A DNA stretch of 64,000 bases from the human T2T-CHM13v2.0 reference genome, Homo sapiens: assembly GCF_009914755.1 (NCBI RefSeq), contig NC_060940.1, one strand, 5' to 3'. A program made the translations under genes and the position numbers. The notes below the pieces were generated by a model. That model did not search any database. It worked only from the letters and a program-made list of their open reading frames with translations, and was not told where the DNA came from. Below, piece by piece: positions 3,172 to 5,975 of the stretch; position 1 is the first letter of the stretch; each line of letters begins with the position of its first letter.

Positions 3172-3405
3172 TGTTAAAGGTAGTTAGGCATGAGAGCAGG
3201 ACAGGAGAGGGCTCTCCGACCCTCCATTGGAAATGTCAGGTGTTGGTTCGGCAATTACCACATTGCCTCTCTAAAAATAATTCAGCAGCGCGAGGAAGAC
3301 GCCATTTCCTGATGGTCCACACCTGTTAACATTAAAATTTTAATTGAACGCAGGCGCCAAGGAGAAGCAATTTCCTGGGCATGCGTGTTAACAGACAAAA
3401 ATGGC
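3172..3405 (+). mobile_element. 5' (U3) part of an ERV solo LTR (ERVL-class, LTR18/LTR47-like; family uncertain)
   Basis: Starts TGTTAAAGGTAGTTAGGCATGAG...GGAGAGGGCTCTCC; continues after the Alu at 3406 via a duplicated target site. Confidence 0.7.
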
Positions 3406-3672
3406 CTTTGGGAGGCCAAGGCGGGAGGATCACTTGAGTTCGGGAGTTCGAAACTAGCCTTACCAACATGGTGAAACCCCCGTCTCTACCAAAAACACAA
3501 AAAATTAGCCTGGCGTGGTGGCGCACGCCTGTAATCCCAGCTACTAGGGGGGCTGAGGCAGGAGAATTGCTTGAACTCGGGAGGCAGAGGTTGCAGTAAG
3601 CTGAGATCCCGTCACTGTAATCCAGCCTGGGCCACAGAGAGAGGCTCCGTCCGAAAAAAAAAAAAAAAAAAA
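3406..3672 (+). mobile_element. 5'-truncated Alu (array Alu 1) inserted in the LTR
   Basis: TSD agacaaaaatggc (3393-3405) / agacgaaaatggc (3673-3685). Confidence 0.92.
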
Positions 3673-5975
3673 AGACGAAAATGGCGAAGTATGATCTCCC
3701 ATACACTCCACCAGAGAAGGGAAGAAAGCCTCAGATGGGCATGCATATAACTCCCTAAACACACTGCGCATGTTCAATTCCAAAGGATACAGAAAGCACT
3801 GCGCATGTGGAAGCCCCACGCTAAGGGAGGAATTACAGGAAAGAGGCAAGCTTATAAAAAAAAAAGTCCTAGGATCCGCCGACGTGGTGGCTCAACGCCT
3901 GTAATCCCAGCACTCTGGGAGGCTTAGGCAGGCGGATCACGAGGTCAGGAGTTCAAACCAGCCTGGCCAACATGATGAAACCCCGTCTCTACTAAAAATA
4001 CAAAAATTAACTGTGTGGTGGCGCGTGACTGTAATCCCAGCTACTGGGGAGGCTGAGGCAGGAGAATTGCTTGAACCCGAGAGCCGGAGGTTGCAGGGAG
4101 CCGAGATACCGCCACTATACTCCAGCCTGGGATACAGAATGAGACCCCGTCTAAAAAAGAGCAATAAGAAAGTCGAAGTATGATCTCCCATACACTCCAC
4201 TGGAAAAGGGAAGAATGCCTCATACGGGCATGCCTGTAACTCCCTAAACACACTGCGCATGCTCCGTTCCAAAGGAGTATAGAAAGCACTGCGCATGCGG
4301 AAAGCCCCCGTTAAGGGAGGAACTACCGCAAAGAGGCGAACTTAATATAAGTCCTAGGATCGGTTGGGCGCGGTGGTTCACGCCTGTATTCCCAATACGC
4401 CTGTATTCCGAGGCGGGCGGATCACGAGGCAGGCGGAACACGAGATCAGGATTTCAAGACCAGCCTGGCCAATATGATGAAACCCCGTCTCTACTAAAAA
4501 TACAAAAAATTAGCCTGGCGTCGTGGCGCGCGCCTGTAATCCCAGCTACTGGGGAGGCTGAGGCAGAATTGCTTGAACCCGGGAGGCAGAGGTTGCAGTG
4601 AGCTGACATCGCCCCATCCCGCCACTGGACTTCAGCCTGGACCACAGAGCAAGACCCCGTCTCAGAAAACATAGAGACAAAAACTGCTTAGTATGATCTC
4701 CCATATACTCCACCGGAAAAGGAAGAAAGCCTCAGTTGGGCATGCGTATAACTCCCTAAACACACTGCGCATGTTCAATTCTAAACAGTACAGAAAGCAT
4801 TGCGCATGCGGAAAGCTCGCCCAAAGGGAGGAATTATGGGAAAGAGGCGAGTTTACAAAAGTCCTAGGATCCGCGGGGCGTGGTGGCTCACGCCTGTAAT
4901 CCTGGCTGTTTGGGAGGCTGAGGCGGGCAGATCACCTGAGTTCAAGACCAGCCTGGCCAACATGATGAAACCCCGTCTCTACTAAAACTACAAAAATTAG
5001 CTGGCTGTAGTGGCGCGCGCTTGAGGCAGGAGAACTGCTTGAACCCGGGAGGCGGAGGTTGCAGTGAGCTGAGATTCCGCCACTGTACTCCAGACTGGGC
5101 CAGAGCAAGACTCCGTCAAAAAAAAAAAAAAAAGACAAATACAGCACCGGAAAAGGAAAGAAAGCCTCAGATGGGCATGCGTATAACTCCCAAAACACAA
5201 CTGCGCATGTTCAATCCCAAAGCGTACAGAAAGCACTGCGCATGCGGAAAGCCCACTTTAAGGGAGGAATTACAGGAAAGAAGGAAGCCTATAAAACTCC
5301 TAAAATCGGCCGAGTGCAGTGGCTCACGCCTGTAATCCCAGCACTTTGAGAGGCCGAGGCGGGCTGTTCACGAGGTCAGGAGTTCAAGACCAGCCTGGCC
5401 AACATGATGAAAACCCGTCTCTACTAAAAATACAAAAATTAGCTGAGTGTGGTAGTGCGCGCTACCTGTAATCCTAGCTACTGGGGAGGCCGAGGCAGGA
5501 GAATTGCTTGAACCCGGGAGGCGGAAGTTGCAGTGAGCTAACATTCCGCCACTTTCCTCCAGCCTGGGCCACAGAGCGAGACTCCGTCTCAAAAAAAAAA
5601 AAAAAAAGAAAAAGAAAAAGAAAAACGGCGAAGTACGATCTCCCATACACTCCACTGGAAAAGGGAAGAAAGTCTCAGATGGGCATGCGTATAACTCCCA
5701 AAACACATTGCGCATGTTCAATTCCAAAGGGTACAGAAAGCACTGCGCATTCGGAAATCCCAAGGGAGGAATTATAGGAAAGACATGAGCTTGTAAAAGT
5801 GCTAGGATCAGCCAGGCGCGCTGGCTCTGGCCTGTAATCCCAGCTAGCACTTTGGGAGGTCGAACCCGGGAGGCGGAGGTTGCAGTGAGCCAAGATCACG
5901 CCATTGCACTCCAGCCTGGGCAACAAGAGCAAAACTCCATCTCAAAAAAAAAAGTAAAGAAAAGAAAAGAAAACA
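3673..5975 (+). repeat. Composite tandem array: 5 x [~200-bp LTR promoter core + Alu]
   Basis: LTR cores at ~3673-3876, 4165-4361, 4675-4871, 5133-5307, 5619-5809; Alus at ~3877-4160, 4362-4670, 4872-5132, 5308-5618, 5810-5975; gtcctaggatc-type anchor at 3866, 4351, 4861, 5297, 5799 (periods 485, 510, 436, 502). Confidence 0.95.
3765..5800 (+). promoter_or_regulatory. Cluster of ten TGCGCAT (NRF1-like) cores and five TATA-like boxes
   Basis: TGCGCAT at 3765, 3800, 4254, 4290, 4766, 4801, 5202, 5237, 5709, 5744; TATAAAA at 3853 and 5290, variants near 4342, 4852, 5791; activity is inferred only. Confidence 0.5.

What the first reader, a model, noticed from the sequence alone, without database searches (positions are those of the whole stretch)
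3172..5975. Five-unit tandem array of LTR promoter core fused to Alu: candidate composite promoter or ncRNA battery
Seen: a ~200-bp LTR segment (gaagtatgatctcccatacactccac ... cctcagatgggcatgcgtataactcc ... actgcgcatg ... actgcgcatgcggaaagccc ... TATA-like ... gtcctaggatc) recurs five times with periods of 485, 510, 436 and 502 bp, each time abutting the 5' end of a sense Alu. Each core has two TGCGCAT motifs and an A/T box about 12-25 nt before the Alu start; unit 1 also has a YY1-like AAAATGGCG (3678). Established: NRF1 binds TGCGCATGCGCA-type sites in a methylation-sensitive way, LTR U3 regions are Pol II promoters, and upstream flanks modulate Pol III transcription of Alu/7SL-derived genes. 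Inference: an Alu landed close to the LTR start site and the promoter-Alu fusion was then amplified, giving a homotypic NRF1 cluster that may act as a primate-specific promoter/enhancer or drive Alu-derived RNAs. Standard repeat annotation would split this into about a dozen unrelated fragments and hide the periodicity. I cannot confirm it is undescribed.
Basis: partly seen in the sequence, partly recalled or inferred. Interest (0 to 1): 0.8.

Follow-up and report, generated by a model that had tools for sequence, protein, structure and literature searches.

The report
Alu-amplified fragment of an old retroviral LTR
A 190-base promoter piece of an ancient retroviral end-repeat, caught between two Alu insertions, was copied five times in a row by Alu-to-Alu recombination tens of millions of years ago, and the array has kept unusually many CpG sites.

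Summary
Window 3172-5975 holds the first ~233 bases of a ~693-base LTR, a 5'-truncated Alu, then five units of (175-204-base LTR core + sense Alu) with periods of 486, 509, 436 and 502. The core is the last ~190 bases of U3, ending at the A/T box. R and U5 are absent from the window.

The LTR has TG...CA ends and 4-base target duplications (class I, ERV1). It matches at about 70% identity the LTRs that flank RefSeq-annotated HERV-FRD remnants (Repbase MER50 group), so it is a sister subfamily.

Every unit starts with a copy of the first Alu's target duplication. Every internal Alu has a full 5' end. This fits unequal crossing-over between two sense Alus 190 bases apart.

Units differ by 13-14% at non-CpG sites, against 23-27% between dispersed copies. 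That puts the array at roughly 25-45 million years.

New here: the array is CpG-island-like (observed/expected 0.68 against 0.25 for the window). It keeps 14 of 15 CpGs in the TGCGCATG(CG) motifs and overlaps three RefSeq hESC enhancer features.

A regulatory role is therefore possible but unproven. No RNA gene is supported. This is an ordinary kind of structure with one interesting twist.

The parts
3172..3404 (+). 5' 233 bases of the LTR (U3, first half), starting TGTTAAAGGTAG; its last 12 bases (3393-3404) are the upstream target duplication of the first Alu
   Evidence: Aligns to the first ~245 bases of 20+ dispersed copies at 73-83% identity. The termini of dispersed copies read TGTTACAGG.... 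It has 8 CpG, against a mean of 2.5 in 17 dispersed copies.
3405..3672 (+). Alu 0, sense, 5'-truncated (lacks about the first 30 bases), with an A-tail
   Evidence: Sub-threshold Metazoa_SRP match at 3508-3650. Flanked by AGACAAAAATGG and AGACGAAAATGG.
3673..3876 (+). Unit 1 LTR core (last ~190 bases of U3), starting with the downstream target-duplication copy (3673-3684); holds AAAATGGCG, two TGCGCATG and TATAAAAAAAAAAG
3877..4159 (+). Alu 1, sense, with a full 5' end
4160..4362 (+). Unit 2 LTR core (9 CpG; GCGCATGCGG present)
4363..4674 (+). Alu 2, sense, with a full 5' end and a 16-base internal duplication
   Evidence: (period 16 at 4409-4444)
4675..4871 (+). Unit 3 LTR core, starting with the target-duplication copy AGACAAAAACTG
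4872..5132 (+). Alu 3, sense, with a small internal deletion
5133..5307 (+). Unit 4 LTR core, with about 26 bases deleted near its 5' end
5308..5619 (+). Alu 4, sense, with a full 5' end and a long A-rich tail
5620..5809 (+). Unit 5 LTR core (its second motif reads TGCGCATT)
5810..5975 (+). Alu 5, sense, with most of its middle deleted and an A-rich tail; it is followed by non-LTR sequence, so the LTR's last ~260 bases (R and U5) are missing
   Evidence: No match to the 3' part of the LTR anywhere in the 64-kb window.

Best explanation
A solo LTR of an old class I (ERV1) endogenous retrovirus, a sister subfamily of the MER50/HERV-FRD LTRs, integrated here in + orientation. Two sense Alus later inserted into its U3. 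One is a 5'-truncated Alu at LTR position ~245. The other is at the A-run of the TATA-like box at ~435, a typical L1-endonuclease target. The two Alus lay 190 bases apart in direct orientation. Unequal crossing-over between them duplicated the segment (190-base U3 core + one hybrid Alu). Further unequal exchange between units brought the number to five. The LTR's R and U5 were lost at the 3' edge in a way I could not resolve. Since then the units have diverged independently, and nothing shows recent homogenisation. The array is therefore a by-product of Alu-Alu recombination, not a designed fusion. Shown: the anatomy, the family relation, the relative age and the CpG excess. Inferred: the order of events, the recombination mechanism, and that the CpG excess reflects long-term low methylation in the germ line.
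For: Family and anatomy. The core matches the middle of a ~693-base dispersed repeat. There were 451 first-look candidates for the core and 1465 for a full copy. A 20-mer with up to 2 mismatches gave 395 matches, against 2 for the backwards control.

LTR class. Termini read TGTTA...TAACA, with exact 4-base flanking duplications in 7 of 23 automatically evaluable copies out of 43 (one 5-base, no 6-base); further 4-base cases were read by eye.

LTR layout. TATAAA and AATAAA are placed as in U3-R-U5.

Relation to HERV-FRD. The family shows 70% identity over ~545 columns to four LTRs lying just beyond RefSeq FRD env pseudogenes (score 204, reversed control 30). Identity is 81% within our family and 78% among the FRD-flanking LTRs. 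It is 71% to the U3 upstream of ERVFRD-1. In print, Repbase MER50 = ERVFRD (PMC3113919 Table 2; PMC1236922).

Recombination model. The 5' LTR part ends at locus position ~1499, and each core restarts at ~1484-1494, a 12-15-base overlap that equals the first Alu's target duplication. Alu 0 lacks its 5' end, whereas Alus 1-4 have full 5' ends. So every internal Alu must combine a 5' part from the downstream Alu with the 3' flank of the upstream one.

Integration target. An independent Alu with a 15-base target duplication sits at the same A-run in L030. Other insertions lie within ~15 bases of it in L039 and L042.

Not a mobile composite. No other locus among the 40 scored matches has clustered cores.

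Age. Non-CpG K2P is 0.130 between cores (10 pairs) and 0.142 between internal Alus (6 pairs). It is 0.227-0.271 between 34 dispersed copies (561 pairs).
Against: The position of the crossover inside the Alus could not be mapped from shared variants. Alu 0 differs from the majority of Alus 1-4 at 14 of 87 left-arm columns and at 13 of 146 columns elsewhere. Alu 5 is no more different from Alus 1-4 than Alu 0 is in the 3' region (8 against 7 of 64 columns).

The downstream target duplication of the second Alu cannot be shown, because the LTR's 3' part is missing. Its insertion is therefore inferred from the L030 parallel.

No copy of the family was found next to internal retroviral sequence (0 of 39 independent loci). 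The link to HERV-FRD thus rests on LTR similarity of only ~70%. The Repbase/Dfam subfamily name was not determined.

The ages rest on a recalled substitution rate and on scaling to a published entry date for a related lineage, not for this subfamily.
Confidence: 0.8

Rival explanations
1. One reading: the array is a homotypic cluster of NRF1-type sites that is kept unmethylated and works as a primate-specific enhancer or promoter. Amplification would be what made it strong enough to resist methylation.
For: The array (3403-5975) has 114 CpG, observed/expected 0.68 and GC 0.51, against 0.25 for the window. In 400-base steps, all of 3201-6000 lies at 0.62-0.78, while the flanks fall to 0.2-0.5. 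Cores carry 6.2 CpG on average, against 3.0 in 34 dispersed copies. The unrepeated 5' LTR part has 8, against a mean of 2.5 and a maximum of 7 in 17 copies. CpGs inside the TGCGCATG(CG) motifs are kept in 14 of 15 cells, against 9 of 44 in the 15 loci picked without regard to them. Other ancestral CpGs are kept in 13 of 37 against 14 of 132. Alus in the array keep 11.6 CpG, against 6.5 in 24 other Alus of the window. Three RefSeq features overlap the array (H3K27ac hESC enhancer 3450-3949; H3K4me1 hESC enhancer 5348-5849 and 5850-6349), whereas only 0.43% of 20000 random 2804-base regions of chr16 overlap three or more. The feature names match the ChIP-STARR-seq study of hESC, in which active means RPP >= 138 (PMC6084406, passages). 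The link between the RefSeq rows and that paper is recalled, not shown by a call.
Against: No occupancy, methylation or transcript data could be seen. RefSeq has no gene, promoter, CAGE cluster or DNase site here, and the nearest genes are 40 kb (SHISA9) and 276 kb away. The five units are related, so the CpG counts are not independent. The motifs were picked because they looked conserved. Other invariant runs of 8-10 columns exist in the cores. A full 10-base palindrome GCGCATGCGC is in 0 of 5 cores and 0 of 34 copies, and the 9-of-10 form GCGCATGCGG is in 3 of 5 cores. The NRF1 consensus itself is recalled. Exact TATAAA survives in 2 of 5 units, and the natural start site, R and U5 are gone. 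GC of 51% fails the stricter CpG-island rule (55%, recalled). Short-read signals on Alu-rich DNA are prone to mis-mapping.
Confidence: 0.3
2. The CpG excess comes from GC-biased gene conversion in a recombination-prone spot, not from low methylation or function.
For: The array was itself made by unequal recombination, so exchange has happened here. The excess covers the Alus, the cores and the unrepeated LTR part alike.
Against: The PRDM9-type 13-mer (recalled motif) occurs twice in the window, once in the array, against 1.16 expected. RefSeq marks no recombination region here. Units are 13-14% apart, so conversion between them has been rare. GC content of the array (0.51) is close to that of ordinary Alus, and the excess is specific to CpG, with the motif CpGs the most retained.
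Confidence: 0.12
3. The units arose by replication slippage or template switching rather than by meiotic unequal crossing-over, or the core + Alu unit is a mobile composite (SVA-like) that landed here repeatedly.
For: Both models can also give head-to-tail copies. Breakpoints inside Alus are likewise expected for template switching.
Against: A mobile composite is excluded as far as tested. All 35 scored matches of the core outside the array lie singly, and the 39 independent dispersed loci that were cut out lie inside full-length LTRs. None of them shares the window's Alu junction; L030's Alu has its own target duplication two bases away. Units lack their own target duplications and poly-A-to-flank junctions apart from the inherited one. 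Slippage against crossing-over cannot be told apart from one haplotype.
Confidence: 0.08

Closest known systems
MER50 / HERV-FRD (ERVFRD) LTR group, class I (ERV1) endogenous retroviruses
   Same: About 700-base LTR with TG...CA ends, 4-base target duplications and a U3-R-U5 layout with a TATA box and AATAAA. Collinear similarity over U3, R and U5 to the LTRs next to RefSeq FRD remnants and to the U3 upstream of ERVFRD-1. The age fits print: syncytin-2 lineage entry about 60 Mya or more than 45 Mya, present in all simians (PMC3610889, passages).
   Different: Only ~70% identical to the FRD-flanking LTRs, against 81% within the family, so it is a separate subfamily. All 39 independent copies inspected are solo LTRs with no internal sequence beside them. 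The exact Repbase/Dfam name (MER50, MER50B, MER50C or another) was not established.
Alu-Alu non-allelic homologous recombination producing tandem duplications
   Same: Two direct Alus bracket the duplicated segment. Each unit is that segment plus one recombinant Alu. The first Alu's target duplication is inherited by every unit.
   Different: Amplified to five units and very old (13-14% between units). The well-known cases, which I only recall, are recent two-copy gene duplications. The amplified segment here happens to be a retroviral promoter core.
TE-derived tandem repeats and T2T 'composite' repeat arrays (e.g. 5SRNA_Comp with an AluY)
   Same: A repeating unit built from pieces of different transposable elements including an Alu, arrayed head to tail (preprint 10.1101/2021.07.12.451456, passages; PMC3389668, passages).
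   Different: Only five units, 2.3 kb, and strongly diverged. The 2012 survey required at least 95% identity between units, so it would have missed this array.
NRF1-type methylation-sensitive sites in retrotransposon promoters
   Same: GCGCATGCG-type motifs in a retroelement promoter. One paper's title states that DNA methylation at retrotransposons prevents NRF1-mediated activation in the germ line (PMC12420836, search listing only).
   Different: That work concerns young mouse elements. Here binding is untested, and the element is an old truncated LTR without a start site of its own.

Membership tests
LTR of a class I (ERV1) endogenous retrovirus | Terminal TG...CA in short inverted repeats | tested here: met
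   Dispersed copies start TGTTACAGG and end GCTAACA. The window copy starts TGTTAAAGG at 3172. The window's 3' end is missing.
LTR of a class I (ERV1) endogenous retrovirus | 4-base target-site duplication (5 for class III, 6 for class II; established knowledge, recalled) | tested here: met
   Exact 4-base duplications in 7 of 23 automatically evaluable copies of 43; 5-base in 1; 6-base in 0. More 4-base cases were read by eye (L012, L020, L024, L029). It cannot be tested for the window copy itself.
LTR of a class I (ERV1) endogenous retrovirus | U3-R-U5 layout: TATA box, then a poly(A) signal about 100 bases later | tested here: met
   TATAAA is concentrated at 400-480 (10 occurrences) and AATAAA at 480-560 (21 occurrences) in 34 copies. 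The window keeps U3 only.
LTR of a class I (ERV1) endogenous retrovirus | Found as paired LTRs around gag-pol-env, with a primer-binding site after the 5' LTR | tested here: not met
   0 of 39 independent loci share sequence beyond the LTR ends, and no second LTR lies within the 1.5-4.5 kb flanks held. The primer-binding site was not examined.
MER50 / HERV-FRD LTR group | Sequence homology to the LTRs of HERV-FRD proviruses | tested here: inconclusive
   Clear homology: 70% over ~545 columns, score 204 against control 30. All 25 copies in the database were hit by L053. But it is weaker than within either cluster (81% and 78%), so group membership is likely and the subfamily is open. No Dfam or RepeatMasker was on hand.
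Alu-Alu unequal crossing-over product | Direct Alus at both ends of the duplicated segment, and one recombinant Alu per unit | tested here: met
   Six sense Alus. Alu 0 is 5'-truncated, and Alus 1-4 have full 5' ends followed by Alu 0's downstream target duplication. The crossover point from variants is inconclusive.
CpG island | Length over 200 bases, GC over 50%, observed/expected CpG over 0.6 (classical rule, recalled); stricter rule GC at least 55% (recalled) | tested here: inconclusive
   2573 bases, GC 0.51, observed/expected 0.68. This meets the classical rule and fails the stricter GC cut-off.
NRF1-bound regulatory element | GCGCATGCGC-type site (recalled consensus), factor occupancy, unmethylated CpGs | not testable with these tools
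   For the motif alone: 9-of-10 matches in 3 of 5 cores, and half-sites in all units. Occupancy and methylation data are not available here.
Alu/7SL-type small RNA genes (Rfam) | A match reaching the family's gathering score | tested here: not met
   The best Metazoa_SRP match scores 56.3 bits against a gathering score of 70. The mir-1268 and mir-3135 matches score 25-46 against 80-83.

The most novel reading that the evidence does not exclude
Amplifying a retroviral U3 core that carries NRF1-type sites from one to five copies, interleaved with CpG-rich Alus, created an orphan CpG island. This island has resisted germ-line methylation for some 30 million years and acts as an early-embryonic or germ-line enhancer or promoter. 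It would be a case of copy number, produced by Alu recombination, turning a decaying LTR into a methylation-resistant regulatory element.
Probability: 0.25. Interest if true: 0.55.

Novelty: new member of a known kind. Interest (0 to 1): 0.3.

Why it matters
The array is a clean, fully readable example of how two nearby Alus can amplify whatever lies between them. It also shows why an A/T box beside an Alu is more likely an integration target than a functional coupling.

The one point worth following is the CpG record. The LTR part, the cores and the Alus have all kept two to three times more CpGs than their relatives elsewhere, and nearly all CpGs inside the NRF1-type motifs. The locus also carries hESC enhancer annotations. 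If public methylation and binding data confirm low methylation, this would be a dated natural case of a CpG island created by repeat amplification.

If they do not, the array is a neutral relic in a gene desert between SHISA9 and ERCC4.

Tried and rejected
Tandem Repeats Finder on 1-12000 did not report the array; it listed only short repeats.

Rfam at a permissive threshold gave only Alu-derived matches below the gathering scores, so an RNA-gene reading was dropped.

Search for a provirus or core gene of the family: 25 loci with 1.5-kb flanks and 20 loci of 9.9 kb contained no second LTR and no shared sequence beyond the LTR ends. The only exceptions were two pairs of segmental duplicates (L025/L026 and L036/L037). 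The family could therefore not be named from a core gene.

Literature searches for an LTR family tied to NRF1 (passages of PMC9691860) gave no family name.

A full-text search for three strings of the LTR found 0 papers.

I compared RefSeq's retrovirus-named genes by eye with the LTR places listed. None coincided.

The 250 bases beyond the 3' bound of ERVFRD-1 (L052) gave no match to the family.

The PRDM9-type motif is not enriched.

Mapping the Alu crossover from shared variants was inconclusive.

The automatic end-finder for target duplications placed some ends wrongly. Only 23 of 43 loci were evaluable, and L012 and L024 were set at an internal look-alike, so I also used the reading by eye.

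Loci dropped before the distance and CpG counts:
- L016, L019 and L030, which carry insertions;
- L022 and L011, which are truncated;
- L026 and L037, which are duplicates of L025 and L036;
- L033, L039, L042 and L050, which are truncated or interrupted.

The Alu subfamily was not determined by any tool. By recall the Alus look S-type, not J or Y.

Supplementary tables were closed. These are the activity calls per region in PMC6084406 and the composite lists of the T2T repeat paper. They may bear on the enhancer claim and on whether the array is already listed.
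Full report
1. What is there.

Reading window 2800-6400 shows the following in + orientation:
- an LTR start (TGTTAAAGGTAG...) at 3172;
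- 233 bases of LTR up to 3404;
- a 5'-truncated Alu (3405-3672);
- five units, each an LTR-derived core (3673-3876, 4160-4362, 4675-4871, 5133-5307, 5620-5809) followed directly by a sense Alu (3877-4159, 4363-4674, 4872-5132, 5308-5619, 5810-5975).

The repeat finder recovers the cores as a five-member family with spacings of 489, 512, 435 and 508. The five cores align with 113 invariant columns of 221 and 83% mean column identity.

All nine TGCGCATG of the 64-kb window lie in the array, against 0.40 expected. The tenth site reads TGCGCATT.

2. What the core is.

The core is a piece of a dispersed repeat. A 188-base core found 451 first-look candidates in the genome. Of the 40 scored matches, 35 lay outside the array, at 76-81% identity. 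A full copy found 1465 candidates. A 20-mer from the core with up to two mismatches matched 395 times, against 2 for the backwards control.

All-against-all comparison of the loci shows that the shared homology spans about 690-700 bases. It starts about 240 bases before the core and ends about 260 bases after it. The median length is 693 bases.

Copies start TGTTACAGG and end GCTAACA. They are flanked by exact 4-base duplications in 7 of 23 automatically evaluable loci out of 43, with one 5-base and no 6-base case. Further 4-base cases are visible by eye. By established (recalled) knowledge, four bases is the signature of class I (ERV1) integrases.

TATAAA clusters at positions 400-480 and AATAAA at 480-560 in 34 copies. 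This gives U3 of about 455 bases, R of about 100 and U5 of about 140. The core is thus the last ~190 bases of U3, up to and including the TATA-like box. 'LTR promoter core' is a fair name. The window has no match to the R-U5 part anywhere.

3. Family.

None of 39 independent dispersed loci showed internal retroviral sequence or a second LTR. No core gene could therefore be used.

I instead read the 600 bases lying just outside the RefSeq 5' bound of ERVFRD-1. On the gene's strand they align with the U3 of our copies: 71% identity over ~372 columns, score 122 against 28 for a reversed control. Seventeen of 25 copies were hit at E <= 0.01, against 0 in 20 shuffles. A TATAAA lies 25-30 bases before the annotated start.

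Four 1-kb stretches lying just beyond RefSeq FRD envelope pseudogenes contain LTRs. These match that U3 at 73-76% over ~500 bases. They match our family at 70% over ~545 columns (score 204, control 30). Our copies match each other at 81% (score 733), and the FRD-flanking LTRs match each other at 78% (score 572).

In print, the Repbase group MER50 is the ERVFRD group (PMC3113919, Table 2, passages). HERV-FRD (MER50) is listed with about 3000 copies (PMC1236922, table row).

Verdict: an ERV1 LTR of the MER50/HERV-FRD group, in a sister subfamily to the one that flanks the annotated FRD remnants. The exact Repbase/Dfam name is open.

4. How the array arose.

The 5' LTR part aligns to dispersed copies up to locus position ~1499. 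Each core restarts at ~1484-1494. The 12-15-base overlap is the target duplication of Alu 0: AGACAAAAATGG before it and AGACGAAAATGG after it. A recognisable copy follows the A-tail of every internal Alu.

Alu 0 lacks about 30 bases at its 5' end, whereas Alus 1-4 have full 5' ends abutting ...CTAGGATC. Every internal Alu must therefore join the 5' part of a second Alu, inserted after the A/T box, to the 3' flank of Alu 0. That is what unequal crossing-over between two direct Alus 190 bases apart produces. Later exchanges between whole units would give five.

Shared variants do not place the crossover.

The second Alu's insertion site is the A-run of the TATA-like box. In another copy (L030, chr5) an independent, internally deleted Alu sits two bases away, with a 15-base target duplication starting in the same A-run. 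L039 and L042 carry other insertions within ~15 bases of it. The closeness of the A/T box and the Alu start is thus best read as target-site choice by the L1 endonuclease (established knowledge, recalled), not as promoter design.

How R-U5 was lost is unresolved. The last Alu is a 5' stub joined to a 3' end, and non-LTR sequence follows it.

5. Age.

Non-CpG Kimura distances average 0.130 between cores (10 pairs) and 0.142 between Alus 1-4 (6 pairs). Between 34 dispersed copies they are 0.227 in the core region and 0.271 over the whole LTR (561 pairs). The amplification thus dates to a little over half the age of the family.

With a recalled neutral rate of 1.5-2.2 x 10^-9 per site per year, the units separated about 30-45 million years ago, and the family spread about 52-90 million years ago. 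Scaling instead to the published entry of the FRD lineage gives about 26-34 million years for the array. That entry is put at about 60 Mya or more than 45 Mya, with presence in all simians (PMC3610889, passages).

The distances between units are star-like (0.095-0.164). This suggests a burst of amplification followed by independent decay, with no sign of recent homogenisation.

6. What it may do.

The array is the only CpG-rich stretch of the window. It has 114 CpG in 2573 bases, observed/expected 0.68 and GC 0.51, against 0.25 for the whole window. Every 400-base step from 3201 to 6000 lies at 0.62-0.78, while the flanks lie at 0.2-0.5.

CpG retention against relatives elsewhere:
- Cores hold 6.2 CpG on average, against 3.0 in 34 dispersed copies (one-sided Mann-Whitney p = 0.005, units not independent).
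- The unrepeated 5' LTR part holds 8, against a mean of 2.5 and a maximum of 7 in 17 evaluable copies of 34.
- The array's Alus hold 11.6, against 6.5 in 24 other Alus of the window.

At ancestral CpG columns, the three CpGs inside the TGCGCATG(CG) motifs are intact in 14 of 15 cells of the array. The figure is 9 of 44 in the 15 loci chosen by a 20-mer outside the motifs, and 22 of 56 in the similarity-picked loci. Other ancestral CpGs are intact in 13 of 37 cells of the array, against 14 of 132 and 22 of 171.

RefSeq places three hESC enhancer features on the array (H3K27ac at 3450-3949; H3K4me1 at 5348-5849 and 5850-6349). Such features cover 1.9% of chr16, and only 0.43% of 20000 random regions of this size touch three. 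Their names match the ChIP-STARR-seq study of hESC (PMC6084406, passages). That the RefSeq rows come from it is recalled.

Together these results point to long-standing protection from CpG decay and to some chromatin activity in pluripotent cells.

Points against a functional reading:
- The units are related, so the counts are not independent.
- The motifs were chosen after the fact, and other invariant runs exist.
- The full palindrome is absent (0 of 5 cores, 0 of 34 copies).
- Exact TATAAA survives in 2 of 5 units.
- The LTR's own start site, R and U5 are gone.
- There is no annotated transcript, CAGE cluster or DNase site, and the nearest gene ends 40 kb away.
- Rfam finds no RNA family above threshold.

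GC-biased conversion is a possible alternative for the CpG excess. The PRDM9-type motif is not enriched (2 against 1.16 expected).

7. Comparison with what is known, and verdict.

The structure belongs to known kinds. These are Alu-mediated tandem duplication, TE-derived tandem repeats (PMC3389668, whose 95% identity filter would miss this array) and composite arrays of the kind catalogued for T2T-CHM13 (preprint 10.1101/2021.07.12.451456). That preprint's main text does not mention chr16, and its supplements were closed. I could not find this array in print (searches), which is weak evidence of absence.

I rate it a new member of a known kind, with interest 0.3. The origin story has confidence 0.8 and a regulatory role about 0.3. 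The most novel reading still open is that amplification itself created a methylation-resistant orphan CpG island from a decaying retroviral promoter (probability 0.25).

Noticed in passing
L030 (G000 chr5:127,268,950-127,272,136), oriented positions ~1685-1785: An independent, internally deleted Alu sits in another copy of the same LTR. It is two bases from the window's Alu junction and has its own 15-base target duplication starting in the same A-run of the TATA-like box. L039 and L042 have other insertions within ~15 bases of it. The spot looks like an insertion hot spot.
   Followed up: partly
window 3164-3171: TGTTAAAC directly upstream of the LTR start (TGTTAAAGG at 3172) repeats the LTR's first seven bases. 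It may be chance or a small duplication at the integration site.
   Followed up: no
window 44357-44599: One Alu has 21 CpG (observed/expected 0.96), far above the other 23 Alus outside the array (1-11). It is probably a much younger insertion.
   Followed up: no
window 9445-9618: An 86-base unit is repeated twice at 89% identity. (GT)22 lies at 7257-7300 and (TGAA)n at 10051-10105.
   Followed up: no
L051 (G000 chr6:10,979,645-10,980,244, outside the RefSeq bounds of ERVFRD-1): The U3 upstream of ERVFRD-1 carries a TATAAA 25-30 bases before the annotated start. It also has two CATGCGCA motifs, the reverse complement of TGCGCATG, about 92 bases apart. The motif type is therefore shared across the LTR group.
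   Followed up: partly
L036 / L037 (G000 chr2:110.48 and 110.73 Mb) and L025 / L026 (chrY:6.27 Mb and chrX:87.7 Mb): Two LTR copies lie in large recent duplications. One is an inverted pair on chr2 at 99.3-99.9% identity over 4.3-4.5 kb flanks. The other is an X-Y pair at 98.8% over 3.2 kb.
   Followed up: no
chr16:13,620,535-13,621,093 and 13,632,429-13,633,362 (7-20 kb upstream of the window start): RefSeq lists OCT4-NANOG hESC enhancer features just upstream of the window. The neighbourhood may be an hESC-active domain in the SHISA9-ERCC4 desert.
   Followed up: no
window 1939-2200 and 6526-6797: The two Alus nearest to the array also keep 10-11 CpG, like those inside it, although the unique sequence between them and the array is CpG-poor.
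   Followed up: no
G000 chrX:126,259,014-126,260,239: A full LTR copy has a second 240-base piece of the LTR's 5' part 265 bases away on the same strand. This may be another partial tandem duplication in the family.
   Followed up: no
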